Origin: a virus
IMG/VR virus record: IMGVR_UViG_3300027769_001114
Span: 66,482 to 130,481 of that record
Strand: one strand, 5' to 3'
Length of the DNA: 64,000 nt
The notes under the pieces are model-generated. The model did not search any database and had not been told where the DNA came from. It saw only the letters and a program-made list of their open reading frames with translations. Below, in pieces: positions 25,988-56,997 of this stretch (its first letter is position 1; every line of letters begins with the position of its first letter). The translations under genes were made by a program, and so were the position numbers.

Positions 25988-26039
25988 AGCTGACCTCCTT
26001 GGTCATTATGTGTGTCGTGTCGTGTGACGCGATGTGTTG

Positions 26040-26069
26040 AGTGTAATGCGTGATCCATGTGCTTGTCAA
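26040..26069 (-). promoter_or_regulatory. sigma70-type promoter
   Basis: TTGACA-18-TACACT upstream of 25987. Confidence 0.6.
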
Positions 26070-26248
26070 GCGTTTGGCATGAACCACATTTCTTCTGCCG
26101 GCGTGTCCGGCGAGATGAGGTGGGTGATCCTTCGCTGAACGCGAGGGTGGGCATCTAGCCACGCCCAGGTTTCCTCCAGCGTTGCGAACGGCCCGAAGTA
26201 GACGACGTCCGTCATTCGGCCATGGATGACCATGTACGCACCGATCAA
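26066..26248 (-). CDS. small hypothetical protein
   Basis: YFGPFATLEE..AW; coupled. Confidence 0.55.
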   Translation of the reverse strand: MIGAYMVIHGRMTDVVYFGPFATLEETWAWLDAHPRVQRRITHLISPDTPAEEMWFMPNA

Positions 26249-26520
26249 GGCAATGCCTCAGCGAGCGCATCGGCCGCCCTGAGGGCGAACGATGACAGAT
26301 ATTTGTACGGTGCGGTACGCAACCACGAGAGGCACTCCTCAGCAGATGTGAAGACCTCGGTCTTCGAGTCCACCATGCTCCATTGGTAGAACCACTCGTA
26401 CGAGATGACCCAACGGTCCGACGATGTCGTGTGCATGTCGGCACGGAAACGTCCCTCGCCCGAATGTTCTTCGGTAAGGAATCGCACATTCTTGACAATC
26501 GAGACTTCAAGGGTGCTCAT
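26245..26520 (-). CDS. hypothetical protein
   Basis: ATGA-coupled to upstream gene. Confidence 0.55.
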   Translation of the reverse strand: MSTLEVSIVKNVRFLTEEHSGEGRFRADMHTTSSDRWVISYEWFYQWSMVDSKTEVFTSAEECLSWLRTAPYKYLSSFALRAADALAEALP

Positions 26521-27080
26521 GCTGCCACCCAGCTTTGATCCCATACGGGCATCGGTGCGTAGCCGTTCTCGGTGACGGCGATGACGACGCGATCGCAGAG
26601 TTTCATGTCGGCCCGACGCACGACGTTGATCGCCTGCGTGCTCCGAATGGACTTGAGAACAGCCTCCATGATTTCAGAGTCGCTCATGTTCTCCATGGCG
26701 CGCCCGTAGTCAACGCATGTGTAGATCGCACCACCGACACCGATGTTCTGTTGCCAGATGTTGTATGAGGTACCGGGGAATCGTTGGACATCCCAGTTCA
26801 CATAGTCAACCCACTCAGAGTTGTTGATGTAGGTGCAGATGTTCTCGTCTGCGGCGAACTCCCAATCGCCGTGGCAGGTCGAGCAGACCTCGCGCACGTC
26901 CTGGTTGTACTTGGTTCCGAAACCGTGGCAAGGACGGCAAGTCCTGCGACCGCCTCGTGGGCCATTCCCGGTACCGAGGCACTTGGGGCAGTCCACCTTG
27001 GTGGGGACACTACCTTCGCGGCAGTTTCGGCAACTTGTCTTGCCTAGTGTGAGTGTTCTTGTTTCGTGGTTGATCTTCAT
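26517..27080 (-). CDS. DnaJ-type zinc-finger protein
   Basis: CRNC..G, CPKCLGTG, CRPCHGFG, CSTCHG. Confidence 0.7.
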   Translation of the reverse strand: MKINHETRTLTLGKTSCRNCREGSVPTKVDCPKCLGTGNGPRGGRRTCRPCHGFGTKYNQDVREVCSTCHGDWEFAADENICTYINNSEWVDYVNWDVQRFPGTSYNIWQQNIGVGGAIYTCVDYGRAMENMSDSEIMEAVLKSIRSTQAINVVRRADMKLCDRVVIAVTENGYAPMPVWDQSWVAA

Positions 27081-27108
27081 AGTCGGCCTCCTTGGGGCTT
27101 GTATTTCC

Positions 27109-27149
27109 TTGACAAAAATAACTGTACTACATGGGTGTGACGGAGTCAA
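27109..27149 (-). promoter_or_regulatory. class A promoter unit
   Basis: TTGACT-17-TACAGT-6-TGTCAA. Confidence 0.75.
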
Positions 27150-27166
27150 GTCTTACCTTGACCCCG

Positions 27167-27451
27167 TCATCCGTTTGTTGATTCCTCAATAGGGATCCAT
27201 GGGCTTGAGGTCAGTTCGTCCATGGCATCCCAAACGAAAGACCAAATACTTTCCATTGACAGGCCGTCGATTTCGCCGCCCTTACCGCAGTAACCATCCT
27301 CTGTGATGAGTCCTTCAGGTATGTCAACCGAGATTGAGCCGAGGTACTCGCCTCGTTCTCGCCAGCGGTCAATCTCAATCGTGAGTCCGTTTTCTTTGGC
27401 GAACTTCTCGCACCGTTGTTTGTTAGGTTTCTGCTTTAGGTTTGTTTCCAT
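27167..27451 (-). CDS. small cassette hypothetical protein
   Basis: Conserved RBS element and class B promoter upstream. Confidence 0.75.
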   Translation of the reverse strand: METNLKQKPNKQRCEKFAKENGLTIEIDRWRERGEYLGSISVDIPEGLITEDGYCGKGGEIDGLSMESIWSFVWDAMDELTSSPWIPIEESTNG

Positions 27452-27481
27452 GACGGCCTCCTTGGGGCTTGCTGTTATTTA

Positions 27482-27512
27482 TAGAACGATCAGGTGTGCG
27501 CAATGTGTGCGC
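27482..27512 (-). promoter_or_regulatory. class B promoter-like unit
   Basis: GCGCACAC-14-ATCGTTCTA. Confidence 0.7.
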
Positions 27513-27531
27513 GACTTCCCGGACTTATTTG

Positions 27532-27867
27532 TCAAGCTTCGCAGTCGTGGCCATAGAGCCACTCGGCATGGTCGTCGTCGTTACCGAGGTTGAACTCACG
27601 TTCACACTCGACGCACTTCTTGACCAGAACGCTCCCACGACCAGAACAGACATCGCACTCGGTCGCTTGGGCCGGCCCGTCATAGACTCCACCACGCCCA
27701 TCACAAGCACGACATGACTGCGTGTTGGTCTTCCGGATGTTCCATCCTTCGTGTGTGGTGGCATGGTGAGCACTGTGAGGCTGAAGGCGGTGGAGTGCCG
27801 CGAAAGCTTCCGAGTCAGTCTCGTGGGTGCTGACGGTCTTGCCGTCTCTGCTCACGACCCAACTCAT
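27532..27867 (-). CDS. zinc-finger hypothetical protein
   Basis: CRACDGRG, CDVCSGRG, CVEC...HDC. Confidence 0.65.
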   Translation of the reverse strand: MSWVVSRDGKTVSTHETDSEAFAALHRLQPHSAHHATTHEGWNIRKTNTQSCRACDGRGGVYDGPAQATECDVCSGRGSVLVKKCVECEREFNLGNDDDHAEWLYGHDCEA

Positions 27868-28253
27868 GCTGACACCTTGGCCTCTGCCGAGAAACAGATC
27901 TCGGCGAGTTGGAAGCAGTAGATGTTTGAGATCTCGTTCACCACGACGACCTGACCCTTGTCCTTGCCGTTGGTGACGAGGCGAAGGGTGCGGACACTGT
28001 AGGTGTCGTCAAAGTCAAGGATGACCTCGATGGCACGGGTGGGTGTAGTGAACATCATTAGACCGACGATGTAAGTACCGACGACGTCCGGATCCGGTTC
28101 GCCCATGATGGCGGACATTTGGCCACCACATAGAGCGAGGGTGTTCATCAGGCCGATCTGCTCGGCGATGACTCGTGCGGAACATTCGCGGCCCTTGCGG
28201 TCAAAGCCTCGAGCTAGAAGTATTTTTGCTTGGTTGTTGGTGAGTTTTCTCAT
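27864..28253 (-). CDS. cassette hypothetical protein
   Basis: Conserved RBS element; V.LD.DDTYSV. Confidence 0.75.
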   Translation of the reverse strand: MRKLTNNQAKILLARGFDRKGRECSARVIAEQIGLMNTLALCGGQMSAIMGEPDPDVVGTYIVGLMMFTTPTRAIEVILDFDDTYSVRTLRLVTNGKDKGQVVVVNEISNIYCFQLAEICFSAEAKVSA

Positions 28254-28277
28254 GGTTGCCTCCTTGGGGCTATTTCG

Positions 28278-28317
28278 TTGACAGATTCATCATGACACAT
28301 CGGTGTGACAGAGTCAA
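28278..28317 (-). promoter_or_regulatory. class A promoter unit
   Basis: TTGACT-17-CATGAT-5-TGTCAA. Confidence 0.75.
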
Positions 28318-28318
28318 G

Positions 28319-28633
28319 TCAGAAGGTAAGAAACTTGTCGGCGATTCCGAACATGACTTCTGCCGTCTTGGCGAACAGGGTCTCGTTGGCTTCGTGGAAC
28401 TTTGTCCACGCCTTGCCGGCGGAGTGGTTGCTGAGGTCGTGCTTAGTGATCGTGAGCCAACCGTCGGTAACGCTCCATGCCGACACAACCACATCGGACT
28501 GATAGTCGTAGTGGTTCTTGGTGATGGTGACCTTGACCCGTTGGCCATTCTTGCGTGCGCGGATCTCGGTGTAGATCGCATCGTTGGGCTTGTAGGCGGT
28601 GTTGCTGTCGATGAGTTCGTAGTTTGTGTTCAT
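28319..28633 (-). CDS. cassette hypothetical protein
   Basis: Conserved RBS element and class B promoter upstream. Confidence 0.75.
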   Translation of the reverse strand: MNTNYELIDSNTAYKPNDAIYTEIRARKNGQRVKVTITKNHYDYQSDVVVSAWSVTDGWLTITKHDLSNHSAGKAWTKFHEANETLFAKTAEVMFGIADKFLTF

Positions 28634-28664
28634 AGTTGGCCTCCTTGGGGCTTGCTGTTGTGTC

Positions 28665-28695
28665 TATAACGATCGGGCCGCACGAAAGTGTGCGC
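28665..28695 (-). promoter_or_regulatory. class B promoter-like unit
   Basis: GCGCACAC-14-ATCGTTATA. Confidence 0.7.
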
Positions 28696-28721
28696 CGTAT
28701 TCCGTGGATTATTCGGATCGG

Positions 28722-29276
28722 TCAGCAGACCTCGTCCTTGTCGTTCAACCGATCAGCGATCTCGTCGTAGAACATCTCCATGGTGGCTTCGTCCTTGTCG
28801 TCCAACCGACTAGCGATCTCGTCGTCGATCTCCTTCCATCGGGCGGTGAGTTTTTCTAAGGAGTTGGCGAAGAACTCATCGCACTCGTCACCCCAGTCAT
28901 CGTCGTCATCTTCGTCATCGTCGTCGTCATCGCTCTCGTTCGCCCATTGGCTGATGAGGCTGACATAGCCGTCGTTCGGGTTATTAACGTTGGTGAACAC
29001 GGCGTTCACGAACCGGAGTCCGCAGGACTCGTCGTACCACTCTCGGACGACGGTGGCGAGGTCTTCTGCGTTCGCCTCAACGGTGCGGTCGTCGCAGTGG
29101 ACTCCGTTGTAGTTGGCACGAAACCATTCGGCCTGCTCCTGATCCATCGCAAGATAGATCTTGTGACAGCCATCGAAGGCGGCGAGTAGAGCGTCGTCGG
29201 CGTACTCGGCGACAGCGTCCCAGCCCTCGCCTAGATCGTCTGCGTTGTGTGGTTGGTATTGGTTTTGTGTTTTCAT
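28722..29276 (-). CDS. acidic cassette protein, paralog of 43734-44156
   Basis: Shared AFDGCHKIYLAMD..A.WF..NYNG..CDDRT. Confidence 0.8.
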   Translation of the reverse strand: MKTQNQYQPHNADDLGEGWDAVAEYADDALLAAFDGCHKIYLAMDQEQAEWFRANYNGVHCDDRTVEANAEDLATVVREWYDESCGLRFVNAVFTNVNNPNDGYVSLISQWANESDDDDDDEDDDDDWGDECDEFFANSLEKLTARWKEIDDEIASRLDDKDEATMEMFYDEIADRLNDKDEVC

Positions 29277-29337
29277 ATTGGCCTCCTTGGGGCTTGTTTC
29301 TTTGACAGTTGTATCTTGACAGGGGGGTGTGGCAGAG

Positions 29338-29562
29338 TTAGCTGGTGAAGGTGTACAGGCCGTTGACGACCCTGTCCTCTACGTACTCAACAAACTCGCC
29401 TGAGATATCTCCCCATGAGGCGGCCTCTCGTATCCCCTCAATGATGGAGATCACATCCACCGAAATGATGAGCTTGCCATCTTCGCCGATCTCGACCGAG
29501 ACTGCGCATCCGGCGTTTGCCGATTCCTCACGAATGTTTCCTGCATTTTCTGATGTTTTCAT
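29338..29562 (-). CDS. small acidic cassette protein, paralog of 41611-41829
   Basis: Shared RE.S..GC....E.G.DGKL.I..D..SI. Confidence 0.75.
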   Translation of the reverse strand: MKTSENAGNIREESANAGCAVSVEIGEDGKLIISVDVISIIEGIREAASWGDISGEFVEYVEDRVVNGLYTFTS

Positions 29563-29586
29563 ATTGGCCTCCTTGGGGCTGTTTCG

Positions 29587-29626
29587 TTGACAAGTACATC
29601 ATGACACATGGGTGTGGCAGAGTCAA
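29587..29626 (-). promoter_or_regulatory. class A promoter unit
   Basis: TTGACT-17-CATGAT-5-TGTCAA. Confidence 0.75.
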
Positions 29627-29658
29627 GTATTTGTTTCTTGACTCCGCCGACGACCCTG

Positions 29659-29841
29659 TCATTCGTCCGGATCTAGGAATCCGTGGCCATTGTCTAAGCA
29701 CCACTGACGAGCCTGATCAAGTGACTTGAAAATCAAGTCGTACTCGTCGCCGTAGTCAACGACCGGCAGTAGGACACAATAAGTGTTGCCGTAGCCGTCG
29801 CGGCCTTCCCTGAACCTGTAAACCTTCACTGATGTTTCCAT
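29659..29841 (-). CDS. small cassette hypothetical protein
   Basis: Conserved RBS element; both promoter classes upstream. Confidence 0.7.
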   Translation of the reverse strand: METSVKVYRFREGRDGYGNTYCVLLPVVDYGDEYDLIFKSLDQARQWCLDNGHGFLDPDE

Positions 29842-29875
29842 AATGACCTCCTTGGTCGTTATTTGCTGTTGAGAG

Positions 29876-29906
29876 TAGAACGATCGGTGTCGGCCAAAGT
29901 GTGCGC
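29876..29906 (-). promoter_or_regulatory. class B promoter-like unit
   Basis: GCGCACAC-14-ATCGTTCTA. Confidence 0.7.
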
Positions 29907-29932
29907 AGATTCCGAAAGTTTTTTATTTCTCC

Positions 29933-29973
29933 TTGACAGAGACCATAATGACACATCGGTGTAGTGGAGTCAA
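29933..29973 (-). promoter_or_regulatory. class A promoter unit
   Basis: TTGACT-17-CATTAT-6-TGTCAA. Confidence 0.7.
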
Positions 29974-30007
29974 GTCAATCGGCCGAAAAGATTCGACGCT
30001 CCAATAG

Positions 30008-30048
30008 TTGACTCTGACACTCCCATTGTGTACGATGGTTTGTGTCAA
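30008..30048 (+). promoter_or_regulatory. class A promoter unit
   Basis: TTGACT-17-TACGAT-6-TGTCAA. Confidence 0.8.
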
Positions 30049-30080
30049 GGAAACGCCGAGACACGACCAAGGAGGTCACT

Positions 30081-30305
30081 ATGAAAAAGACCAATGAAAT
30101 CAAGGTTTTCGTAGCAGTTATCCAAACCAAGTACGAAGTGATGGCCGTGGCCGACACCGAGGAGGGCGCACGTGAGGCGGCCGTCAACAAGGCGTGGGAA
30201 TACCTGTCGGGTGTCAAGACCGACCTCAAGAAGTGGGAGATCGCCGACTACTTCGGCGTGGCCGTCACCGAGCTCGTCCTCAACGGTTCGGGCGAGTTCT
30301 GCTGA
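30081..30305 (+). CDS. small cassette hypothetical protein
   Basis: GACCAAGGAGGTCACT-ATG start. Confidence 0.75.
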   Translation: MKKTNEIKVFVAVIQTKYEVMAVADTEEGAREAAVNKAWEYLSGVKTDLKKWEIADYFGVAVTELVLNGSGEFC

Positions 30306-30310
30306 ACGGG

Positions 30311-30341
30311 CCGCACACTTCGGCAGTGAACGATCGTTATA
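30311..30341 (+). promoter_or_regulatory. class B promoter-like unit
   Basis: CCGCACAC-14-ATCGTTATA. Confidence 0.7.
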
Positions 30342-30374
30342 GATACATACCAATAAATGACCAAGGAGGTCGCC

Positions 30375-30788
30375 ATGAAAACATCAACGAAGTTAGTCCA
30401 CCCCACACCCGAACTATCCGAGCGAGTGATCGCCGTCTGCGAGTATCCACAATGGTGCTTGGATGACGACGGCAACCACACCTGCGTGCCGGACGACATC
30501 GAACCTGCTCGTAAGTACGCCCTCGTGATCGTCAAATCCCACGAGACTCGTGATGGTGCGTATTGGGAGGGTTTACTGTTTCGCAACGGCGAGGCGATCC
30601 TAGATGTCTCCAACGACGGTTGCGGTGGGCCGAACATGTACCACCCCATCCCAGGCCAAGCCCACCCCAACTGGCGAGAGGACTTGGAAACACTCAAGGC
30701 CGACGCACAGAAGGCGTTCCCGCGAGTCAAGTACGAACTTGAGGATGTCCTCATGGGCTACTTGGACATGATCGCCAACGCAGTCTGA
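30375..30788 (+). CDS. cassette hypothetical protein
   Basis: Conserved RBS element; V.NDG.GG motif. Confidence 0.75.
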   Translation: MKTSTKLVHPTPELSERVIAVCEYPQWCLDDDGNHTCVPDDIEPARKYALVIVKSHETRDGAYWEGLLFRNGEAILDVSNDGCGGPNMYHPIPGQAHPNWREDLETLKADAQKAFPRVKYELEDVLMGYLDMIANAV

Positions 30789-30871
30789 TCGGAACGAAAG
30801 CGGGGGTGTCGGCAACTGTGCCACACCCTCGCGGCACAATCTCATTATCAGCAACGACCAAGGAGGTCAAT

Positions 30872-31171
30872 ATGGAAACATCAACTAAGACAGTCAAGGA
30901 TCCGTGCATTTGGTGCGAGCAGTCCACCGCTTTCGGCTCGGGTCGTTTCGTAAACCGGATTCCGGCAGATCGGGACGACGAAGAGGCCACCATCGACGGG
31001 TGGGCTTGCGCCGAGTGTGCGGGCTACGAGTGCGACGAGTGCGGCGAGCAGATCTATCTGGACTCCGAGGTCAGGGTTGACCACCTTGCCGTCGGTGGCG
31101 AGTACCAATACGGCAACTACCACGAGGCCTGTTACTCCCGAACGAAACACGGCCCGATCGCCGAGTACTGA
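30872..31171 (+). CDS. Cys-rich cassette protein
   Basis: CIWC..STAFGSGRFVNRIPA, CAEC, CDEC, HEAC. Confidence 0.75.
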   Translation: METSTKTVKDPCIWCEQSTAFGSGRFVNRIPADRDDEEATIDGWACAECAGYECDECGEQIYLDSEVRVDHLAVGGEYQYGNYHEACYSRTKHGPIAEY

Positions 31172-31197
31172 GCTCGCCGAGAGGCCACCGGAACCGA

Positions 31198-31224
31198 GCC
31201 CCGACCCTCATCGGTCGGGGCTTT
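31198..31224 (+). terminator. intrinsic terminator-like hairpin
   Basis: GCCCCGACC-ctcatc-GGTCGGGGC followed by TTT. Confidence 0.6.
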
Positions 31225-31294
31225 GCCGTTCCTCTGTTTGGGTGGCTAGTATGTCGGTGACAACTAGACACCCCGAAGGGTGAGAGGGAACGAC

Positions 31295-31795
31295 ATGACA
31301 ACCGAGAGCCACCATTACGACGCCCGATGGGCAGTCAACGTCGACGGCATCAAAGCATGGGCGGCCAAGAACGGCAGCCCGATGGCCCCAGCCGGAGCGA
31401 CGATCCGCCTGCGTGACGGCCGGACGGCCAATGTCGGCACGTTCGTTGCGTACGCTCGAGCTAGGCACCGGAAGGGCCTGCTCGACGAGCGTCGAGTCCG
31501 CGAGCTGTCACGCATCCCGGGCTGGACGTGGGACAGACTGTCTCCGGGGCCGAAGGGCAAGGAGTCACGGAACGAGGAGATCCGCCGCCTGCGGGCTCAG
31601 GGCGTGACTCTCGCTGAGATCGCGGAGAAGTTCGAGATGTCGAGACAGCGTGTGCATCAGATTGCGCCGGATGCCCCGGAAGAGTCGAGGCACGAGGCCC
31701 ACCTCGAGAAGCGCCGGAAGCAGCGCGCAAAGCTGAACGTCGAGAAGGTTCGAGCTGCCGTGTCAGCTGCAAAGAACCGGAAGGTGTCGCGTTGA
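31295..31795 (+). CDS. helicase-associated-like domain plus sigma region-4-like HTH protein
   Basis: VGTFV...R.....G.L...R..EL..IPGWTWD; G.TLAEIAEKFEMSRQRVHQI. Confidence 0.7.
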   Translation: MTTESHHYDARWAVNVDGIKAWAAKNGSPMAPAGATIRLRDGRTANVGTFVAYARARHRKGLLDERRVRELSRIPGWTWDRLSPGPKGKESRNEEIRRLRAQGVTLAEIAEKFEMSRQRVHQIAPDAPEESRHEAHLEKRRKQRAKLNVEKVRAAVSAAKNRKVSR

Positions 31796-32001
31796 TGCCC
31801 GCCGTGACTCTCGCTCTGTTTATCTCGTGGTGTTCGTGGGCCTTGATGATCGTCGTGGGCATCCTGCACTCCGTTGGCTTCACGGCCCACACGCTCGGTT
31901 ACGACCAGGCTTCCGGCATTGCCTGGTGCCTGATGCCCCCGGTGTTGTTCCTTATCGCCGGCTCGAGGTACGTGGCCGACCAACAACGGGCCAAGAAATA
32001 G
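31792..32001 (+). CDS. small membrane protein
   Basis: Two hydrophobic segments, coupled. Confidence 0.55.
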   Translation: MMPAVTLALFISWCSWALMIVVGILHSVGFTAHTLGYDQASGIAWCLMPPVLFLIAGSRYVADQQRAKK

Positions 32002-32006
32002 CAAGA

Positions 32007-34243: not shown

Positions 34244-34272
34244 GGTGACCTCCTTGGTCGTTGTTTATGTCA

Positions 34273-34817: not shown

Positions 34818-34841
34818 AGTTGCCTCCTTGGCGTTGTTTAC

Positions 34842-35383: not shown

Positions 35384-35469
35384 GGCTGACCTCCTTGGTC
35401 GTTTTGGTTACTTACTCATAGTGCCAGGGGGGTGTGTCAGAGTTGTTCCGACTCACTTCCTGTCAAGAT

Positions 35470-35581: not shown

Positions 35582-35612
35582 GGAAACACCGAGACAGACC
35601 AAGGAGGTCACC

Positions 35613-35875: not shown

Positions 35876-35906
35876 GTCTCAACAACGAATGACCAAGGAG
35901 GTCACT

Positions 35907-37789: not shown

Positions 37790-37819
37790 AATGACCTCCT
37801 TGGTCGTTGTTGTTGTTGT

Positions 37820-38240: not shown

Positions 38241-38267
38241 GATGACCTCCTTGGTCGTTGGTATTCA

Positions 38268-38793: not shown

Positions 38794-38821
38794 AGTGGGC
38801 CTCCTTGTGGCTTCTATTTCC

Positions 38822-38906: not shown

Positions 38907-38946
38907 TTGACTCTGTCACACCCCTGTGGCATGATGTGTTTGTCAA
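38907..38946 (+). promoter_or_regulatory. class A promoter unit
   Basis: TTGACT-17-CATGAT-5-TGTCAA. Confidence 0.75.
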
Positions 38947-38979
38947 GGAAACGCCTTGACATGGCCAAGGAGGTCCGAC

Positions 38980-41417: not shown

Positions 41418-41450
41418 GGCTTGACCTCCTTGGTCTGTCAAGGTATTTCC

Positions 41451-41490
41451 TTGACACATTCATCATGACACAGGGGTGTGATGAAGTCAA
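41451..41490 (-). promoter_or_regulatory. class A promoter unit
   Basis: TTGACT-17-CATGAT-5-TGTCAA. Confidence 0.75.
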
Positions 41491-41586: not shown

Positions 41587-41610
41587 GAAGATATGACCAA
41601 GGAGGTCACT

Positions 41611-41829: not shown

Positions 41830-41886
41830 CGGGGTCGTCACACCCATCTAGCAAGATATAACCAACACCGACCAAGGAGGTCACCT

Positions 41887-42087
41887 ATGAATACACAGAC
41901 CGAAAGCGAAGTAGTCCCCTGCGACCACGAGTATGAGGCGTACTGCCCGAACTGCGGGATCGACGCATTGGACGACGAGGACGGCACAGGGATCCTGTAC
42001 GACGAAGATGGCAACTCAGAGTATGAGAAAGCCATGGGCGCACCATACGACGACACAGACACCACACAAACGACCAAGGAGGTCTAG
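41887..42087 (+). CDS. small acidic Cys protein
   Basis: CDH....CPNC; conserved RBS element. Confidence 0.65.
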   Translation: MNTQTESEVVPCDHEYEAYCPNCGIDALDDEDGTGILYDEDGNSEYEKAMGAPYDDTDTTQTTKEV

Positions 42088-43668: not shown

Positions 43669-43697
43669 AGTGACCTCCTTGGTCGTTGTTGTAGTTG

Positions 43698-44156: not shown

Positions 44157-44189
44157 GGCGACCTCCTTGGTCATTGTCTCGGTATCTCC

Positions 44190-44326: not shown

Positions 44327-44350
44327 GGAATAACGACCAAGGAGGTCACT

Positions 44351-44548: not shown

Positions 44549-44603
44549 CGGGAACTGATCACTCGGGGATTCGACACAACCAACAATGACCAAGGAGGTC
44601 ACT

Positions 44604-46861: not shown

Positions 46862-46885
46862 AGCGACCTCCTTGGTCTTCATTAC

Positions 46886-47011: not shown

Positions 47012-47042
47012 GGAGATACCGAGACAGACTAAGGAGGTCATT

Positions 47043-47230: not shown

Positions 47231-47263
47231 CAAACAACAACAACAATGACCAAGGAGGTCACC

Positions 47264-47777: not shown

Positions 47778-47801
47778 CGAAATACGACCAAGGAGGTCAT
47801 T

Positions 47802-51034: not shown

Positions 51035-51514
51035 ATGGCAAACGGAATACAAACAACGGTGGCAGGCAACCTGACCGCCGACCCCGAACTAGCGGTTCTC
51101 GGGTCCGGAGCGTCGAAACTGACGTTCTCGATCGCTTGCGAACGCTCGTGGAAGAATGACAAAGGCGAGTGGGAGAACGAAACATCATTCGTCGACTGCA
51201 TCGCTTGGCGACAAATGGCCGAAGATGCGGCTGGAGTTCTTGAAAAGGGCCTCAGGGTCGTCGCAACTGGACGCTTTGAGCAACGCTTCTGGGACAACGT
51301 CGACACCGGCAAGAAGCAGTCGAAGTGGCAGTTCGTTGTCGACGAAGTTGCCATCAGCACCAAAGTGATCGAGTCTCTCGTTCGCAAGCGCCGTGGCGAT
51401 GCCGAAGGGTCACGCCCAGCAGCTGGCGGACGTCAGCAGCAGTCAGGTGGAGCAGCTCGAGCAGCATCGGCAGCTCGTCGACCCGCACCAAGCAGCAACG
51501 ACGAAGAATGGTGA
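51035..51514 (+). CDS. ssb: single-stranded DNA-binding protein
   Basis: VAGNLTADPEL, F.IA..R, TSFVDC.AWR..AE, KG.RV..TGR..QR. Confidence 0.93.
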   Translation: MANGIQTTVAGNLTADPELAVLGSGASKLTFSIACERSWKNDKGEWENETSFVDCIAWRQMAEDAAGVLEKGLRVVATGRFEQRFWDNVDTGKKQSKWQFVVDEVAISTKVIESLVRKRRGDAEGSRPAAGGRQQQSGGAARAASAARRPAPSSNDEEW

Positions 51515-51703
51515 GCTAGCCTCGCTAACTAAGTCATTTAGTTCTCCCATGCCCGACCCCCCGGAAGGCATGGGGGGGAAACCCCGGCCCGCGTCGCTCC
51601 TCCTTGGGACGTCGGAGCCGGGGTCTTCCATTTTGTAGGAGGAAGAAATGAGAATAGAAGACCTAACCGCCGGCCTCGAAGCCGCAAGGGCCGAGAACTC
51701 CTG

Positions 51704-52138
51704 ATGCCCAGGCCAGAGGGAGAAGCGTGGAAGACCGGGGGTTACGGCACCACGGTCTGGCATCAACGCCTCGACTGCGGCCACGTGATGTCGAAGAAGC
51801 GGAAGCTGAAGCCGGAGGTCGACATCGACTGCCCGGAGTGCCAGGAACTCGAGGAGCAGCGACGTTCGTTCGAGAGGATGCCCGACCCGGAAGTCACGGA
51901 CGCTGGCCAGCACGAGTACATCGAGGCGACCGTGCTCGGCCCCGACCTCGACTCGGTGTCAGCTGCTCTCGAGCGGGCGGCTTTCTCGAGGGCCGCCATC
52001 GCTCACGGCCTCGGTGTCATGGTCGAACAGGTCGAGATCGTCGTGGGGGACACCGGCATCGAGGGTGGAATGATCGTCCTCGGCCCCGGTGACGTGATTT
52101 CTCTTGTACAGAAGTTGACAAGGGGTAACGAGAAGTAG
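51704..52138 (+). CDS. hypothetical protein with Zn ribbon
   Basis: LDCGH...CPEC. Confidence 0.55.
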   Translation: MPRPEGEAWKTGGYGTTVWHQRLDCGHVMSKKRKLKPEVDIDCPECQELEEQRRSFERMPDPEVTDAGQHEYIEATVLGPDLDSVSAALERAAFSRAAIAHGLGVMVEQVEIVVGDTGIEGGMIVLGPGDVISLVQKLTRGNEK

Positions 52139-52144
52139 TACAGT
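52115..52144 (+). promoter_or_regulatory. sigma70-type promoter
   Basis: TTGACA-18-TACAGT. Confidence 0.6.
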
Positions 52145-52198
52145 TACCAAGTCGCCTCAGGGCGGCACTACCTATACACATAAACCAAGGAGGTAACG

Positions 52199-52681
52199 AT
52201 GACACCAAAAGACATCGACGAAGAATACAAGGCAGCCGTTACAGCTCTACAGGAGGCCCACGGATCGTGGACATCTGCGATGAATGATCCTGAGTGGGTC
52301 GTCATTAGCGAGCGCAGTCGGGCGAAGTACGCCATGATGCTGAATCCGGAGACAGAACCCGAGAGGGTGATGACGATGTTCTCTATTGACCGCCGTGTCA
52401 AGGAGGAGATCCTCGGTCGAGCGGTTGAGTTCGCTCCGAAGAAACGCAAGGACGCCTACAAAGTGGCGATCCTTGAGTGGGCCGCCGAGAACGTCGGTGC
52501 CATCGTTACCGCATCAGCACTCGCCGCTCAGTGCGACACCACGTCGTCGAGCGTCCGAGGTTTCATCAACGAACGCCCGGACATGTTCTGGGCAGCAAAG
52601 AAGAAGGGTTCGTACGAAGTGCGCGACCCGAAAGCAGACCGAGAGGCCGAGAAAGCGGCCGGAAAAGGGAAGAAAACATGA
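52199..52681 (+). CDS. hypothetical protein, possible winged helix
   Basis: ACCAAGGAGGT RBS element. Confidence 0.7.
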   Translation: MTPKDIDEEYKAAVTALQEAHGSWTSAMNDPEWVVISERSRAKYAMMLNPETEPERVMTMFSIDRRVKEEILGRAVEFAPKKRKDAYKVAILEWAAENVGAIVTASALAAQCDTTSSSVRGFINERPDMFWAAKKKGSYEVRDPKADREAEKAAGKGKKT

Positions 52682-53457
52682 AAAATAACCAAACCAACAA
52701 GTCAGCTATGACCCGGGACGAGACAATGGCGGCCATGTACGTGGCCGGCAAGACACTCCAGGAGATCGGCGATGCGTACGGCGTGACTCGCGAGCGTGTC
52801 CGTCAGGTGCTGTCGAAACAGGACGTCTCAAGGCGCAAGCCGCTTGACCAGGCCCGCCGGACTCACAATGCGTCGGTCGAAGCAAACCGGGGAACCATCC
52901 TTAGACTCTTCGAGAAGACGCGCAATGTGAAGGAAACCGTTGCTCTTCTTTCGGGAGGCATCCCCGCAAGGGTCGTACGCGAGGTGCTTGCCCCCGTGGC
53001 ACATACTCAGGTGCTAACCAGGAAGGGCTCGGATAAGGACTTCAGCGACGATCAGATCTCCGCCGCAATCATTGAGGCAGAACGACTCGGTTTCACGAGC
53101 GTCATCTCGTACGGAGCGTGGAGAGAAGCGCAAGCGAAGAAGGGCCGTCGTGTTCCGTCGGTCGCAACCATCACGGTTCGGCATGGATCATGGTCGTCGG
53201 CCCGTCGCATGGCGGGTGCTCGCGTCGTCACTGAGCGAATGTCGCCGTCGTGTCAGGTGTTCACCGATCAGCAGATCCAAGAGTCAGTCGACAGGTTCGT
53301 CACAGCGGTTGTCCAAGTCGGGTCAACGCCCACGACACGCCGTTACGACGAGTGGTCAAGGAAGGTCGGCGACGTCCCGTTGCTCTCAACCGTCCGTGCC
53401 CGAACAGGAAAGTCATGGTCATCCTTGACAAGGGAGTCCTTGACTCGCTATTCTTGA
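52678..53457 (+). CDS. sigma region-4-like HTH plus two helical repeats
   Basis: TLQEIGDAYGVTRERVRQV; two FSD.QI...Y..W....VP...T...R.G.SW repeats. Confidence 0.72.
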   Translation: MKNNQTNKSAMTRDETMAAMYVAGKTLQEIGDAYGVTRERVRQVLSKQDVSRRKPLDQARRTHNASVEANRGTILRLFEKTRNVKETVALLSGGIPARVVREVLAPVAHTQVLTRKGSDKDFSDDQISAAIIEAERLGFTSVISYGAWREAQAKKGRRVPSVATITVRHGSWSSARRMAGARVVTERMSPSCQVFTDQQIQESVDRFVTAVVQVGSTPTTRRYDEWSRKVGDVPLLSTVRARTGKSWSSLTRESLTRYS

Positions 53458-53506
53458 CAGTTCGTACTAATACACATTCCAACACACGTTTACCAAGGAG
53501 GTAACA

Positions 53507-54043
53507 ATGAAGAAGAAACCAAACATAATGATCTCTACCCGTTGGGAGGCGGCACGATGGTGCCACTCCTATGACCATGTCCTTACGGTGTTCTCGCCGT
53601 GGTGGCATTGCGATTGGGGCCACGGCGACCATCTGATCGTCGAGTTCCAGGATCGCTACCTTGACCGAGAGGGCGCACCGACGCTTTCTCAGATTGACGA
53701 CATCCTCTGTTGGGCATACCCACGGCTGATGCCCTTTTCGGCCACTCAGGACGATTCAATGTTGATCCACTGCAAGGCAGGTCAGTCTCGTTCAACGGCG
53801 GTTGCGATTGCCATCTGTGCGATGATCGGGATGTCCGAGGAGGAGGCATTTAGCTATGTCTACTCAGAGTGCCGTCCCGCCGGGAAGGTGGGCGTGCGCC
53901 CGTTCATACCTAATATGCGAGTCCTTGAACTTGCTGACGAACTATTGGGCACGAACCTCGTGTCGGCCCATGTCTCGCTTGACGCCACAAAAGAACCCGA
54001 GTGGATGTCTGGCTACCCACGGCTGCTGGATGTGAAGCGATGA
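53507..54043 (+). CDS. protein tyrosine phosphatase-like protein
   Basis: LIHCKAGQSRSTA (CX5R), EFQD, PN. Confidence 0.85.
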   Translation: MKKKPNIMISTRWEAARWCHSYDHVLTVFSPWWHCDWGHGDHLIVEFQDRYLDREGAPTLSQIDDILCWAYPRLMPFSATQDDSMLIHCKAGQSRSTAVAIAICAMIGMSEEEAFSYVYSECRPAGKVGVRPFIPNMRVLELADELLGTNLVSAHVSLDATKEPEWMSGYPRLLDVKR

Positions 54044-54327
54044 GCGAACTCGACATACCCTCGGGACGCCATGCTGAGTGGCGATCCATTATCAAGCACA
54101 AACAACTTGAGATGGCTACAAACCTGTTGAAGGAGATGCGCAGCATCAACCCCGATATACCCAAAGACATTGACGCAATGACCCTGCTAGATGCTTTGGG
54201 TTGTGCCGGCCTGTCCCTTGCCGTCGGCGAGTGGGCCTCGTCGACGTTCATTGAGAACCTCGAGACAACTCGGCCGTGGTCGGACTTAAGTCAGCTGTTG
54301 CCGGACATGGGCGAGGTGGAGTCATGA
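54040..54327 (+). CDS. hypothetical protein
   Basis: ATGA-coupled. Confidence 0.6.
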   Translation: MSELDIPSGRHAEWRSIIKHKQLEMATNLLKEMRSINPDIPKDIDAMTLLDALGCAGLSLAVGEWASSTFIENLETTRPWSDLSQLLPDMGEVES

Positions 54328-54650
54328 CACAGAGCAGCACAACGTGGCGTGACTCGGCGGCGTGCCGCGGGGTTGAGAAGGACTTCTACCCGGCGTCCGG
54401 CAAGAACAATCTGAGGGTCAGGGCCATCGTAAAGGAGGCCCTGGCGATGTGTAACGGCTGCCCCGTCCGGCTCGACTGCCTGAACTGGGCGGTCGAGAAC
54501 AAGGAGTTCTACGGCATCTGGGGAGGGACGACCGAACGTGAGCGCAGGCTAATGATTGAGAACCACGCCCCCTTTGCTGATACGACCATTCGTATGCCGA
54601 TCGTTGAGATAGGTAGCATCATGCTCCCAAGGGAGAAGGAAAGTGAATGA
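54324..54650 (+). CDS. whiB: WhiB family transcription factor
   Basis: WRDSAAC, C.GCPVR.DCL.WA, GIWGGTTERERR. Confidence 0.93.
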   Translation: MTQSSTTWRDSAACRGVEKDFYPASGKNNLRVRAIVKEALAMCNGCPVRLDCLNWAVENKEFYGIWGGTTERERRLMIENHAPFADTTIRMPIVEIGSIMLPREKESE

Positions 54651-54877
54651 GGATGGATCACGAAGCGATGCGGACGGCCCTGACGAACGTCGTCGGCCGT
54701 CCGCCCACATCAGCCGGAGGCTGGGTCTACCTTCCGGGACAAGCTTCCCGGGAGTCACGGCTGCTCGACGCCGGGTGCCGGCTGTTCGACGCGCTCGACT
54801 GCTACCGCGGGTCGAGAGACCCGGTAACCGAGGCCGCTCTGAGGGCGTGGGTCGAAGCAACCGGGGACGTGAAATGA
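54647..54877 (+). CDS. small hypothetical protein
   Basis: ATGA-coupled. Confidence 0.5.
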   Translation: MRMDHEAMRTALTNVVGRPPTSAGGWVYLPGQASRESRLLDAGCRLFDALDCYRGSRDPVTEAALRAWVEATGDVK

Positions 54878-55062
54878 GGGCCTGGATGCTCGCCTTCCTC
54901 GCTCCGGCGATGCTTTTTGGCATCTTCCTCGCTAGCCGCATCCTCGAGGCACTCGACGAGGACGCCGAAGAGGGCCGGAAGTTAGTCGAGGCCGGCGATG
55001 ACGAGCTAATGAAGAGCATCGTTACCGGATGGGCCGAGAAGAATAAGGGCGGCTCAAAGTGA
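54874..55062 (+). CDS. small membrane-anchored protein
   Basis: N-terminal hydrophobic segment; coupled. Confidence 0.5.
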   Translation: MRAWMLAFLAPAMLFGIFLASRILEALDEDAEEGRKLVEAGDDELMKSIVTGWAEKNKGGSK

Positions 55063-55238
55063 GTCGTGTGGAGTCACGGTACGAACGCGCCGACTTCCTC
55101 CGGGCGGACAACGCACTGCAGCTAGTCGAGGCGCTGGCTCGTCAGATCGACGACCCGGAGCTTCTCTCGACGCTGCTGTCAAGGATCACGTCGGTGGCCG
55201 AGGCCGTTGCGTACCGTTCAACGCGGGGAGTTTCCTGA
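55059..55238 (+). CDS. small hypothetical protein
   Basis: 59-aa GTG ORF coupled on both sides. Confidence 0.5.
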   Translation: MSRVESRYERADFLRADNALQLVEALARQIDDPELLSTLLSRITSVAEAVAYRSTRGVS

Positions 55239-55666
55239 TGCCGGCGGATCGGAGGAGGGAAGTCCTCAATGAAGCGTCCTCGCTCGTCAACGGCGATAGG
55301 AACGAGACCTACGGTGACCCCTACGACGACTACATGAAGGTCTCGAAGATGTGGAACGCCTACCTCGAGGGGCTGATGAAGCGTAGGGGGATCAGCGTGT
55401 CGCCTGCGCTGACTGACCTCATTGAGCCGCACGATGCCATCGCAATGATGGTGCTGCTGAAGACGGCCCGCATCGCCAATGCGCCGGGACATCGAGACAA
55501 CTGGGTCGACCTCGCCGGCTATGCAGCCTGCGGATGGGATGCCTATGGAGGGCCAGGTGCGCAGTCACGGGCGGCGGACAACGCAGAGCCGCCACGCGGA
55601 TCGAGGAATCCGTATGACATTCGAGAGGCAGTGGCAGCTTGGCGCAAAGAGAACGGGCCTGGCTGA
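55238..55666 (+). CDS. DUF6378-like phage protein
   Basis: L.EA..LVNGDR...YG.P......MW..YL, MMVLLK.AR, H.DNWVDLAGYAA. Confidence 0.75.
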   Translation: MPADRRREVLNEASSLVNGDRNETYGDPYDDYMKVSKMWNAYLEGLMKRRGISVSPALTDLIEPHDAIAMMVLLKTARIANAPGHRDNWVDLAGYAACGWDAYGGPGAQSRAADNAEPPRGSRNPYDIREAVAAWRKENGPG

Positions 55667-55872
55667 TGGGCTGCACGAGCGACGTCGTCCGGGCTGCGGC
55701 CGGGATCGTCGAGTCCGGGTCTCCGGTGACAGTCGAGGGCATCTCGAAGTCCTGGGGCCGGAGCTATGGGTCGACGCAGCGCATGGTAAGGCATGCCGTG
55801 ACTCTCGGATGGCTCGAGGAGTCGACGTATGCCCCCACCCCCGCCGGCCTCGAAGCGTGCGGCCGCATCTGA
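55666..55872 (+). CDS. small winged-helix-like protein
   Basis: TV..IS...GRS..ST...V...V..GWL....PT.AG. Confidence 0.5.
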   Translation: MGCTSDVVRAAAGIVESGSPVTVEGISKSWGRSYGSTQRMVRHAVTLGWLEESTYAPTPAGLEACGRI

Positions 55873-55909
55873 CTCGGTGCTGCGCGGGCGGCTAGTAGCC
55901 TCTCAGGGC

Positions 55910-56491
55910 ATGAGCCCGCATCCCATCGACATGACGTACGGCGTCCTCGATGCGGCCAAGCAGACGAAGTCGGAATCGGTTCGCTCGATGGGCGTCGGCA
56001 CCGATGTGCTGCCGTGCGTGTTCTGCTTCGATGACACCGGGGTCGTCGAGTCCTATGCGATCCTGATTGAGAACGATTCGTCAAGGACGCTCAACATCGC
56101 TCTCCTCGAGGCCGTAGCGGTGATGCGCCGGTCATGGGGCTGCCACGCCGTGGTATGGGCACACGAGTCCTACACGGCCCCTCCGAGCGACGATACGAGG
56201 ACGTTAGTCGAACGCTTCCCCACCGACCCGGAGGTCGAGGAGTGCATCACCCTGCTGTGCGTGACGATCGAGGGCGATGCTGCCTATGTGGTGCAGCCCT
56301 ACAAGGTGGGCGTCGGCCGGCGCATCGAATGGGCCGAACCCCGGGTGGGCGTCGGGTTCTCGACGGAGCATGAGCTTGCCGATGTGGCCCACCGGATACT
56401 GAGGCAGACCGAGGTGGACAGGTATGCCCTGCCGCACGAGGGCATCACCGCCTTGGGTGAGCTCGGCTTCATGGCGACAGACAACGGCTAG
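55910..56491 (+). CDS. hypothetical protein
   Basis: 193-aa ORF with coding-like composition. Confidence 0.6.
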   Translation: MSPHPIDMTYGVLDAAKQTKSESVRSMGVGTDVLPCVFCFDDTGVVESYAILIENDSSRTLNIALLEAVAVMRRSWGCHAVVWAHESYTAPPSDDTRTLVERFPTDPEVEECITLLCVTIEGDAAYVVQPYKVGVGRRIEWAEPRVGVGFSTEHELADVAHRILRQTEVDRYALPHEGITALGELGFMATDNG

Positions 56492-56613
56492 TGGTCGTCG
56501 TCGTCCCTGCTGATGAGCGTGGGTGCGACGATCATGAGGAGGACACTGACGGCGATGAGGACTGCTGTCTCGAGCACGTCCCCACCGTACCCCCACGGCC
56601 CACTCTCGTGGCC

Positions 56614-56973
56614 TCAGGTGCGTTGGGTGAGTGTCTCTAGGAGTGCCGTCTTGAACTCCTCCCCCAAGCCCGCACGGATCGCCGTGAGGTACTCGTGCCT
56701 CTGTTCGTCGGTCGCCTCCTCGTCCATCCAACGGTCAATGATCGCACTCGCCTGCTCCTCAACGATGACGGCTTCCATGCGTGCGTCCTCCGCCTTCTGC
56801 TCCTCATAGAGGTCGCAACGGTGGGCGATCTTGATGGTCTTCATGACCCACCCGTTCTCGTTCTTGATGTGCGCACCCTCCATGGGGGTGAGATACCACT
56901 TGCCCGCCTTGCTCTGCGCCCACTTCAGGTCAGGGCATCCGCACTTCTTGCATGTGATCGGCTTCTTCTCCAT
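56614..56973 (-). CDS. cassette protein with Zn-binding motif
   Basis: CKKCG...W..SK.GKWY...H.C; conserved RBS element. Confidence 0.75.
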   Translation of the reverse strand: MEKKPITCKKCGCPDLKWAQSKAGKWYLTPMEGAHIKNENGWVMKTIKIAHRCDLYEEQKAEDARMEAVIVEEQASAIIDRWMDEEATDEQRHEYLTAIRAGLGEEFKTALLETLTQRT

Positions 56974-56997
56974 AGCGACCTCCTTGGTCATGTCTCA

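What the first reader, a model, noticed from the sequence alone, without database searches (positions are those of the whole stretch)
25991..56990. The shared RBS is a covarying RNA hairpin presenting AAGGA in the loop (CsrA/RsmA-like operator)
Seen: the consensus GACC-AAGGA-GGTC is a 4-bp stem with a 5-nt loop, and variants keep pairing. Examples: GCC-AAGGA-GGC at about 34822 (double compensatory change), GACT-AAGGA-GGTC at 47027 and GGCC-AAGGA-GGTC at 38963 (G-U wobble), GCC-ACAAGGA-GGC at about 38799, and GCC-CCAAGGA-GGC in the 27-29.6 kb block. Every time 3' GGT becomes GGC, a 5' GCC appears. Known: CsrA/RsmA proteins bind ANGGA in hairpin loops overlapping the Shine-Dalgarno. Inference: one RNA-binding protein or nuclease could switch off the whole gene set post-transcriptionally, or these mRNAs titrate a host regulator. 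No CsrA-like ORF was recognised here.
Basis: partly seen in the sequence, partly recalled or inferred. Interest (0 to 1): 0.75.

Follow-up and report, generated by a model that had tools for sequence, protein, structure and literature searches.

The report
Hairpin-forming start tag of phage genes
About 35 small genes of an uncultured 130-kb actinobacterial phage begin with the same 13-base tag, a very strong ribosome-binding site that can fold into a tiny RNA hairpin; it is a new version of the still unexplained "start-associated sequences" of mycobacteriophages, and the phage also encodes one folded RNA whose loop is complementary to the tag.

Summary
GACCAAGGAGGTC occurs 23 times exactly, only in window 25992-56989. 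With 12 variants it precedes 35 ATG codons by 5-7 nt.

- **16S pairing:** only AAGGAGGT is complementary to the 16S tail. The flanks pair with each other to give a 3-5 bp stem with AAGGA in the loop.
- **Covariation in this lineage is weak:** the 13-mer is nearly invariant, and the variant alleles look like module swaps.
- **Covariation in Streptomyces phages is clear:** cultured cluster BN phages have the same architecture, with compensatory changes at orthologous genes.

The CsrA reading is not supported. Six phage genomes checked have no CsrA, and a second GGA site is not conserved. The host is unknown, and 55 of 301 genomes sampled from one actinobacterial MAG's phylum do carry CsrA.

The closest known elements are the start-associated sequences (SAS) of cluster K mycobacteriophages.

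A new lead came from earlier notes of this scan on other phages. The one orphan copy of the tag's complement (51599-51607) lies in the apical loop of a conserved hairpin after the SSB gene. It is a candidate anti-tag RNA.

The scan has reported similar start-site hairpins before on other DNA.

The parts
25992..26004 (-). SAS-type tag GACCAAGGAGGTC, 6 nt before ATG of a 149-aa gene
27086..27098 (-). variant GCC-CCAAGGA-GGC (7-nt loop), 187-aa gene
27456..27468 (-). variant GCC-CCAAGGA-GGC, 94-aa gene
28258..28270 (-). variant (t)GCC-CCAAGGA-GGC(a), 129-aa gene
28639..28651 (-). variant GCC-CCAAGGA-GGC, 104-aa gene
29281..29293 (-). variant GCC-CCAAGGA-GGC, 184-aa gene
29567..29579 (-). variant GCC-CCAAGGA-GGC, 74-aa gene
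29845..29857 (-). exact tag, 60-aa gene
30065..30077 (+). exact tag, 74-aa gene
30359..30371 (+). exact tag, 137-aa gene
30856..30868 (+). exact tag, 99-aa gene
34247..34259 (-). exact tag, 237-aa AAA_5 ATPase gene
34822..34832 (-). variant GCC-AAGGA-GGC (A-U replaced by G-C in the 5-nt-loop register), 158-aa gene
35388..35400 (-). exact tag, 143-aa gene
35597..35609 (+). exact tag, 73-aa gene
35891..35903 (+). exact tag, 80-aa gene
37793..37805 (-). exact tag, 125-aa gene
38244..38256 (-). exact tag, 75-aa gene
38799..38811 (-). variant GCC-ACAAGGA-GGC (7-nt loop), 160-aa gene
38963..38975 (+). variant GGCC-AAGGA-GGTC (G.U), 52-aa gene
41423..41435 (-). exact tag, 77-aa gene
41595..41607 (+). 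exact tag, 72-aa gene
41870..41882 (+). exact tag, 66-aa gene
42072..42084 (+). exact tag, 201-aa gene; lies in the 3' end of the upstream gene (gap 2 nt)
43672..43684 (-). exact tag, 120-aa gene
44160..44172 (-). exact tag, 140-aa gene
44335..44347 (+). exact tag, 65-aa gene
44588..44600 (+). exact tag, 70-aa gene
46865..46877 (-). exact tag, 81-aa gene
47027..47039 (+). variant GACT-AAGGA-GGTC (U.G), 59-aa gene
47248..47260 (+). exact tag, 139-aa gene
47786..47798 (+). exact tag, 93-aa gene
52183..52195 (+). variant AACC-AAGGA-GGTA (3 bp ACC/GGT), 160-aa gene
53490..53504 (+). variant TTACC-AAGGA-GGTAA (5 bp), 178-aa gene
56977..56989 (-). exact tag, 119-aa gene; last copy, next to tRNA-Arg
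51581..51625 (+). candidate anti-tag RNA hairpin: its roughly 12-nt apical loop CUCCUCCUUGGG holds the only orphan copy of CCTCCTTGG (51599-51607), the complement of the invariant tag core; it is part of a three-hairpin intergenic fold at 51512-51647

Best explanation
This is a start-associated sequence (SAS)-type translation-initiation module.

Shown:
- An 8-nt Shine-Dalgarno sequence (AAGGAGGU) sits 5-7 nt before the ATG of the first gene of about 35 small transcription units.
- These units lie in the non-structural arm of an uncultured actinobacterial phage.
- The Shine-Dalgarno sequence is flanked by short arms that are complementary to each other.

Inferred:
- On the mRNA the arms close a 3-5 bp hairpin. 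AAGGA is unpaired in the loop and the last two G of the Shine-Dalgarno sequence are in the stem.
- The hairpin is weaker than the duplex with the 16S tail, so ribosomes can still open it.
- Its likely job is to give every cassette the same self-contained start site, whatever its flanks, and to give the whole set one common handle for shut-off.

Of the candidates, I rate highest (about 1 in 3) a phage RNA hairpin at 51581-51625 whose loop is complementary to the invariant 9-nt core CCAAGGAGG.
For: Copy number and position:
- 23 exact and 12 variant copies are confined to 25992-56989.
- All 35 precede ATG by 5-7 nt.
- 32 of 34 measurable sites have a 5' gap of at least 41 nt, and operon-internal genes lack the tag.

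16S pairing:
- Three actinobacterial genomes each hold GGATCACCTCCTTTCT once.
- Only AAGGAGGT pairs with that tail, at -12.4 kcal/mol.

Folding:
- The isolated hairpin folds at -5.2 kcal/mol, with a range of -1.8 to -5.3 across this phage's alleles.
- In the natural context from -40 to +36 the stem has P>0.5 at 26 of 35 sites, median 0.81.
- Natural flanks give mean P 0.69 against 0.59 for shuffled flanks (p=0.042).

Alleles:
- GACC/GGTC, GCC/GGC, TTACC/GGTAA, GGCC/GGTC and GACT/GGTC all pair.
- Loop length varies between 5, 6 and 7 nt with the arms kept.

Streptomyces cluster BN phages (61 distinct rows):
- Covariation score 0.203 against 0.103 (0 of 500 shuffles).
- Pair 6-18 is GC 21, UA 20, AU 2, CG 2, other 16.
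- The wrong register scores 0.054 (467 of 500).
- Orthologous genes switch AGCC/GGCT, GGCC/GGCC and GTCC/GGAC; GGCC/GGCC and GCCC/GGGC; GTCC/GGAC and GATCC/GGATT.
Against: - Within this phage's own lineage the covariation score is not significant (56 of 500).
- The switches between GACC/GGTC and GCC(CC)/GGC at orthologous genes look like replacement of a whole 13-16-nt module, not paired point changes.
- The fourth pair is often mismatched, and A.C mismatches are as common as G.U. The data therefore do not identify the RNA strand.
- BN phage Yara lacks the arms at its promoter-proximal genes, so the hairpin is dispensable in at least one relative.
- Cluster K phage Anaya shows only one-sided variants.
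- Transcript starts are unknown, and there are no usable expression data.
Confidence: 0.6

Rival explanations
1. RNA-RNA shut-off. A structured phage RNA in the gap after the SSB gene (51512-51647) displays CUCCUCCUUGGG in the apical loop of a long hairpin. This loop would kiss the AAGGA loop of every tag and extend to a 9-bp duplex with CCAAGGAGG. That duplex would outcompete the 16S tail and silence, or mark for cleavage, all cassette mRNAs once this transcript accumulates. The model extends the hairpin reading; it does not contradict it.
For: - CCTCCTTGG occurs 34 times. Of these, 33 are the reverse side of tags and 1 is an orphan at 51599-51607.
- The orphan lies in the loop of a hairpin (centroid structure of the 101-nt stretch: -32 kcal/mol).
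- The whole gap folds into three hairpins, z -3.44.
- A relative with 80% SSB identity keeps the fold (z -3.17). It keeps 19 nt around the loop identical, with changed stem bases, one compensatory pair and diverged flanks.
- The loop-tag duplex has a median of -17.7 kcal/mol at 35 sites. The median for 257 control starts is -8.7, with 1 as strong. The 16S tail gives -12.4.
- The loop's GG would explain the conserved CC that 16S does not.
- In cluster K phage Anaya the single reverse-orientation SAS also sits in the 10-nt loop of a GC hairpin in a 385-bp gap.
Against: - One orphan 9-mer is not rare: 0.49 are expected per window.
- I looked for it after reading earlier notes of this scan.
- Only two distinct sequences carry the element.
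- The loop could instead act in cis on the AGGAGGAA of the next gene, about 30 nt downstream, or the hairpin could be a terminator.
- My quick 9-mer look found no such orphan in BN phages, and the one candidate I checked is coding.
- There are no expression data.
Confidence: 0.3
2. Protein operator. A phage or host protein reads the GGA-loop hairpin. It could be a CsrA/RsmA-like or RegA-like repressor, or a RegB-like endoribonuclease cutting GG/AG.
For: - The shape fits a GGA-containing hairpin loop, as stated in the abstract of PMC13443453.
[quoted passage not shown] That is the predicted geometry of GACC[AAGGA]GGUC.
- CsrA is present in 55 of 301 genomes sampled from the phylum of an actinobacterial MAG and in 2 of 3 genomes reached through lysin loci.
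Against: - No CsrA, RegB, ParE/RelE, YoeB or RegA profile match in the phage genome.
- No CsrA in 5 BN phages.
- A second AGGA is present at only 9 of 36 sites.
- RegB's A-rich 3' consensus is absent.
- No RNA-binding family appears among the top 25 of 51 Pfam families, or the top 25 of 100 PHROG families, hit by 94 window proteins. The rest were not shown.
- The hits named 'Rnase E' are helix-turn-helix proteins.
- BN stems vary freely, which rules out a stem-sequence reader there.
Confidence: 0.12
3. No RNA function for the arms. The promoter-leader-RBS module is a recombination linker, or a recently copied cassette boundary like the PeSL cassettes of T4-type phages. The complementary arms simply travel with it.
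For: - Near-identity of 23 copies, and blockwise alleles such as the six GCCCC sites at 27-29.6 kb.
- Whole-module swaps at orthologous genes.
- PeSL promoter-stem-loop-SD cassettes mediate shuffling in phages RB49 and phi1 (PMC2839356, abstract and passages).
Against: - It does not explain why every common allele in two phage lineages is self-complementary.
- It does not explain point-wise compensatory changes with the flanks kept, such as GGCC/GGCC to GCCC/GGGC.
- It does not explain why the tag keeps a fixed distance to the ATG and not to the promoter.
Confidence: 0.12
4. The tag is only an extended Shine-Dalgarno sequence, or the flanks are a DNA palindrome bound by a dimeric protein.
For: AAGGAGGT is a perfect 8-nt match to the 16S tail. 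GACC..GGTC is also symmetric as DNA.
Against: - The CC before and the C after the core do not match the 16S tail.
- Half-site spacing varies between 5, 6 and 7 nt, which a dimeric DNA binder would not tolerate.
- The site is strand-specific and tied to the ATG.
Confidence: 0.04

Closest known systems
[quoted passage not shown] 2011, PMC3203893, passages read; PMC12699233, passages read)
   Same: - A 13-nt asymmetric repeat containing the Shine-Dalgarno core.
- A few nt before the start codon, with a strong ATG preference.
- Found only in the non-structural arm, at genes with a long upstream gap.
- Outer bases are complementary (GGG..CCC there, GACC..GGTC here).
- Bases outside the 16S match are conserved.
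- One orphan reverse copy per genome.
- Function untested as of 2025.
   Different: - A different sequence (GGGATAGGAGCCC there) and a different, unknown host.
- Genes lie on both strands.
- The stem here includes two G of the Shine-Dalgarno sequence.
- Several self-complementary alleles exist within one genome.
- Neither paper discusses a hairpin at the SAS: 'hairpin' and 'stem-loop' occur 0 times in the 2025 paper.
Early-gene ribosome-binding sites of cluster BN Streptomyces phages (ShakeNBake, Wentworth, Dryad, phiRKBJ001; GenBank records)
   Same: CC(CC)AAGGAGG core with complementary arms before the first genes of small early transcription units. The arms covary.
   Different: 7-nt loop, many stem alleles per genome, other promoters. 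No description of this feature turned up in my searches.
T4 RegB and RegA control of early mRNAs (review PMC3014915, passages)
   Same: One factor acts at the translation-initiation regions of many early mRNAs. RegB cuts inside the GGAG of the Shine-Dalgarno sequence.
   Different: No RegB or RegA homologue is present here. RegA sites are unstructured and A/U-rich.
CsrA/RsmA binding sites
   Same: GGA in a short hairpin loop overlapping the Shine-Dalgarno sequence.
   Different: No phage CsrA, no conserved second GGA site, and the host is unknown.
PeSL regulatory cassettes of T4-type phages (PMC2839356)
   Same: Repeated promoter plus stem-loop plus Shine-Dalgarno units flanking small orphan genes in plastic regions.
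   Different: The PeSL stem-loop lies in or near the promoter and acts as a terminator. It does not enclose the Shine-Dalgarno sequence.

Membership tests
SAS (cluster K type) | Short asymmetric repeat containing the Shine-Dalgarno core, many copies per genome | tested here: met
   23 exact and 12 variant copies
SAS (cluster K type) | 3-7 nt before the start codon, ATG preferred | tested here: met
   5-7 nt; 35 of 35 ATG
SAS (cluster K type) | Confined to the non-structural part; at genes with a long upstream gap | tested here: met
   All copies lie in 31 kb of the 130 kb record; gap of at least 41 nt at 32 of 34 sites
SAS (cluster K type) | Consensus GGGATAGGAGCCC | tested here: not met
   The consensus here is GACCAAGGAGGTC; Anaya used as control
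SAS (cluster K type) | Extended SAS: imperfect inverted repeats just upstream at about half the sites | tested here: inconclusive
   TGTCAAGG..CCTTGACA or ..CCGAGACA is seen upstream of some sites; not counted systematically
CsrA/RsmA operator | GGA in the loop of a short hairpin overlapping the Shine-Dalgarno sequence | tested here: met
   Predicted fold only
CsrA/RsmA operator | Two or more GGA sites per target (recalled feature) | tested here: not met
   Second AGGA at 9 of 36 sites
CsrA/RsmA operator | A CsrA protein is present | tested here: inconclusive
   None in the phage or in 5 BN phages. The host is unknown. 55 of 301 genomes sampled from the phylum of an actinobacterial MAG have it.
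RegB target | GGAG of an early gene's Shine-Dalgarno sequence, with GGA unpaired and the 4th G constrained | tested here: met
   Predicted fold; criterion taken from PMC3014915
RegB target | RegB homologue and an A-rich 3' consensus | tested here: not met
   No PF10715 match; the 3' context is GGTCAYYATG
Rfam families | Match to any curated RNA family | tested here: not met
   Only one tRNA in the window reaches the gathering score

The most novel reading that the evidence does not exclude
The tag and the orphan hairpin form a phage-encoded RNA-RNA switch.
- Every early cassette mRNA presents AAGGA in a mini-hairpin loop.
- A structured RNA made from the replication-gene operon presents the complementary CUCCUCCUUGG loop.
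- The two kiss and form a 9-bp duplex stronger than the one with 16S rRNA.
- This turns off about 35 genes at once.

The same logic, with one reverse-orientation tag in a hairpin loop, would explain the cluster K SAS, which have been unexplained since 2011.
Probability: 0.3. Interest if true: 0.85.

Novelty: new variant of a known kind. Interest (0 to 1): 0.6.

Why it matters
Start-associated sequences have been known since 2011 without a mechanism. This case adds three things.

1. The flanks of such tags form a selected mini-hairpin. The evidence includes compensatory changes in cultured Streptomyces phages, where experiments are possible.
2. The 16S tail explains only the core of the tag.
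3. There is a concrete, testable candidate reader: a conserved phage RNA loop complementary to the tag. Cluster K phage Anaya has a parallel.

If this holds, it describes a simple way for large phages to time the expression of dozens of small accessory genes. It would also provide a compact, portable translation module for actinobacteria.

Tried and rejected
- **Close relatives among deposited phages:** megablast of 26000-48000 and blastn of L029 against the deposited phage collection gave no match. Protein searches gave only about 31% identity to Arthrobacter and Gordonia phages, so the host remains unknown.
- **TACC-type tag in viral contigs:** the scan gave only single, probably chance, hits.
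- **RNA runs:** three runs hold small shares of the stretch, as contigs only. They say nothing about starts, ends, cleavage or expression.
- **Host from the endolysin:** only the peptidoglycan-binding domain matched, in assorted MAGs.
- **'Rnase E' PHROG hits:** these proved to be the helix-turn-helix region of Sigma70_r4-like proteins.
- **G.U against A.C mismatch bias:** tested as a way to identify the RNA strand; there was no bias.
- **More relatives of the anti-tag hairpin:**
  - The SSB gene and its neighbour found nothing in viral contigs.
  - The 19-nt loop pattern found nothing.
  - Distant SSB loci have no similar element.
  - The metagenome records behind L406 and L408 are not held for whole-record searches.
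- **Terminator scan:** the simple scan does not call the hairpin a terminator.
- **Corrected recall:** I had recalled that Actinobacteria lack CsrA. Searches show this is wrong as a general statement.
- **Not seen:** supplementary files of PMC3203893 and PMC12699233 (SAS lists for other cluster K phages). They may bear on the orphan reverse sites.
- **Literature:** searches found no paper on this motif or on hairpin covariation at SAS. The library is partial.

Full report
**What the window is**

The window is bases 66482-130481 of a 130,481-bp IMG/VR virus record, estimated 88% complete. Several features mark an actinobacterial phage:
- a WhiB gene, two DUF732 proteins, a GP88 homologue and three Sigma70_r4 proteins;
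- best protein matches of about 31% to Arthrobacter and Gordonia phages.

No cultured relative was found at the DNA level, so the host is unknown.

**The observation**

AAGGAGG occurs 40 times against 7.2 expected. The 13-mer GACCAAGGAGGTC occurs 23 times exactly, on both strands, only between 25992 and 56989. Twelve further sites carry variants. All 35 sites are followed by ATG. The gap is 5 nt in 26 sites, 6 nt in 7 and 7 nt in 2. The open frames that follow are 52-237 codons long.

The tagged genes are first cistrons. The 5' gap is at least 41 nt at 32 of 34 measurable sites, and genes inside overlapping operons lack the tag. Upstream lie repeated promoter-like and leader modules. The rule that 3' GGC comes with a 5' GCC holds at 8 of 9 AAGGAGGC sites; the exception is the WhiB gene's site.

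**Is it only a long Shine-Dalgarno sequence?**

Three actinobacterial genomes each contain GGATCACCTCCTTTCT exactly once. Only AAGGAGGT pairs with this tail (8 bp, -12.4 kcal/mol). The CC before the core and the C after it do not pair with it.

**Is it a hairpin?**

Energetics and context:
- ViennaRNA folds the isolated tag at -5.2 kcal/mol. Across this phage's alleles the range is -1.8 to -5.3.
- In the natural context the stem has probability above 0.5 at 26 of 35 sites.
- This is slightly more than with shuffled flanks: 0.69 against 0.59, p=0.042.

Covariation inside this lineage is thin:
- On 89 distinct rows, pairing exceeds every shuffle (71.9% against 68.6%).
- The covariation score does not (0.090 against 0.079; 56 of 500 shuffles reach it).
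- The rows were taken mechanically from 110 sites in the window and four related contigs, after dropping identical rows.
- The GCCCC class pairs only in a 7-nt-loop register.
- My permutation that allows 5-7-nt loops is significant (p from 0.0002 to 0.02). Copies of one module are not independent, so this overstates the case.
- At orthologous genes the GACC/GGTC and GCC(CC)/GGC forms replace each other. This happens in the 129-, 187- and 61-aa groups and in two paralogue pairs. It looks like a module swap.

**An independent lineage settles more**

A pattern scan led to contigs that are 99% identical to cultured Streptomyces phages. The abstract of PMC8852317 names them as cluster BN. Their early genes carry GAGTCC-CC-AAGGA-GGAC, (A/G)GCC-CC-AAGGA-GGC(T/C) or GCCC-CC-AAGGA-GGGC.

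On 61 distinct rows (from 73 sites):
- The covariation score is 0.203 against 0.103 (0 of 500 shuffles).
- The third pair is GC 21, UA 20, AU 2, CG 2, other 16.
- The 5-nt register, used as a control, scores 0.054.

Orthologous genes show double changes in the 119-, 106-, 238- and 118-aa groups. Against this, phage Yara has lost the arms at its promoter-proximal genes. The fourth pair is often open. G.U mismatches are no commoner than A.C.

My reading is that the stem is real but small: three well-kept pairs and a fourth that is often kept.

**What reads it?**

Protein candidates:
- CsrA is absent from this phage and from five BN phages.
- A second AGGA is present at 9 of 36 sites.
- RegB, RegA, ParE/RelE and YoeB profiles find nothing.
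- Contrary to my recollection, CsrA is over the cut-off in 55 of 301 genomes sampled from the phylum of an actinobacterial MAG. A host CsrA therefore cannot be excluded.
- The predicted geometry has GGA unpaired and the next G paired. The T4 review reports this as what RegB needs on a small RNA.

An RNA candidate. Earlier notes of this scan on other phages reported phage RNAs complementary to start tags, so I tested that here.
- The complement of the invariant core, CCTCCTTGG, occurs 34 times. Of these, 33 are the reverse side of tags. One is an orphan at 51599-51607.
- The orphan lies in the roughly 12-nt apical loop of a long GC-rich hairpin in the gap after the SSB gene.
- The gap folds into three hairpins, z -3.44.
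- A metagenome relative with 80% SSB identity keeps the fold (z -3.17). It keeps 19 nt around the loop unchanged. The stem and flanks differ, with one compensatory pair.
- The loop-tag duplex has a median of -17.7 kcal/mol at the 35 sites. The median for 257 control starts is -8.7, and one control is as strong.
- In cluster K phage Anaya the single reverse-orientation SAS also sits in a hairpin loop in a 385-bp gap.

Caveats on the RNA candidate:
- One orphan 9-mer is not rare by chance (0.49 expected).
- Only two distinct sequences carry the element.
- The loop could act in cis on the next gene's ribosome-binding site.
- I saw no such orphan in BN phages in a quick look.
- Nothing shows that the RNA is expressed.

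**Comparison and verdict**

The element meets the positional and copy-number features of cluster K SAS but not their consensus. I file it as a new variant of that kind. It resembles a CsrA site in shape only.

The literature I could search holds no description of this motif or of hairpin covariation at SAS. The 2025 survey of 188 cluster K genomes still calls the function unverified.

Noticed in passing
L131-L147 (viral contigs found through the AAA_5 ATPase, about 56% identity): A different repeat, (t)gACGGTGG(T/C)G(g/t)A.., occurs 4-9 times per roughly 10-kb locus, almost all in one orientation. Many copies follow a -10-like cACTAct, and in some an ATG overlaps the repeat. It may be a conserved transcript 5' end or a leaderless start.
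   Followed up: no
window 57068-57141 (-): tRNA-Arg (anticodon CCT) lies directly beyond the last tagged gene.
   Followed up: no
window, e.g. 41436-41456 (-) and 38941-38961 (+): Class-1 leaders carry an 8-bp inverted repeat TGTCAAGG..CCTTGACA just upstream of the tag, resembling an extended SAS. Its 3' arm CCTTG could alternatively pair with the CAAGG of the tag.
   Followed up: partly
genome 58766 (-), outside the window (window coordinate about -7716): A second orphan, GACCAAGGAGGCC, lies on the minus strand inside a plus-strand structural gene. The late mRNA would therefore carry GGCCUCCUUGGUC, an 11-nt complement of the tag.
   Followed up: no
window 51648-51707 (+): A 19-codon ORF with its own AGGAGGAA site ends in TGATG, overlapping the ATG of the 144-aa gene at 51704. 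In the predicted fold its ribosome-binding site pairs with an upstream CCUC.
   Followed up: no
window 51545-51576 (+) and L408 about 3022-3053: The hairpin just before the anti-tag hairpin has a C-rich loop (CCCCCC) in both relatives, although the stems differ.
   Followed up: no
G001-G3xx (genomes of the phylum of an actinobacterial MAG): CsrA (PF02599) is over the cut-off in 55 of 301 sampled genomes, all 6.5 Mb or smaller. The common belief that Actinobacteria lack CsrA does not hold for the phylum.
   Followed up: partly
L387-L391 (BN Streptomyces phages): Many GAGTCCCC-type tags follow a conserved element..GG(T/C)GCTGGA(C/T)GGC(A/G)CT(C/G)CTGA... By eye it looks like a hairpin, and it contains CTCCTGA, an anti-Shine-Dalgarno-like stretch.
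   Followed up: no
window 25541-25987, 52477-53454 and one more: Three proteins match Sigma70_r4/HTH families and a PHROG named 'Rnase E'. The match is to the helix-turn-helix part, so the PHROG name looks misleading.
   Followed up: partly
window, tagged genes: The N-termini of many unrelated tagged genes begin MKT or MET (11 of 36), often with ACA TCA next. This suggests the conserved module reaches into the first codons.
   Followed up: no
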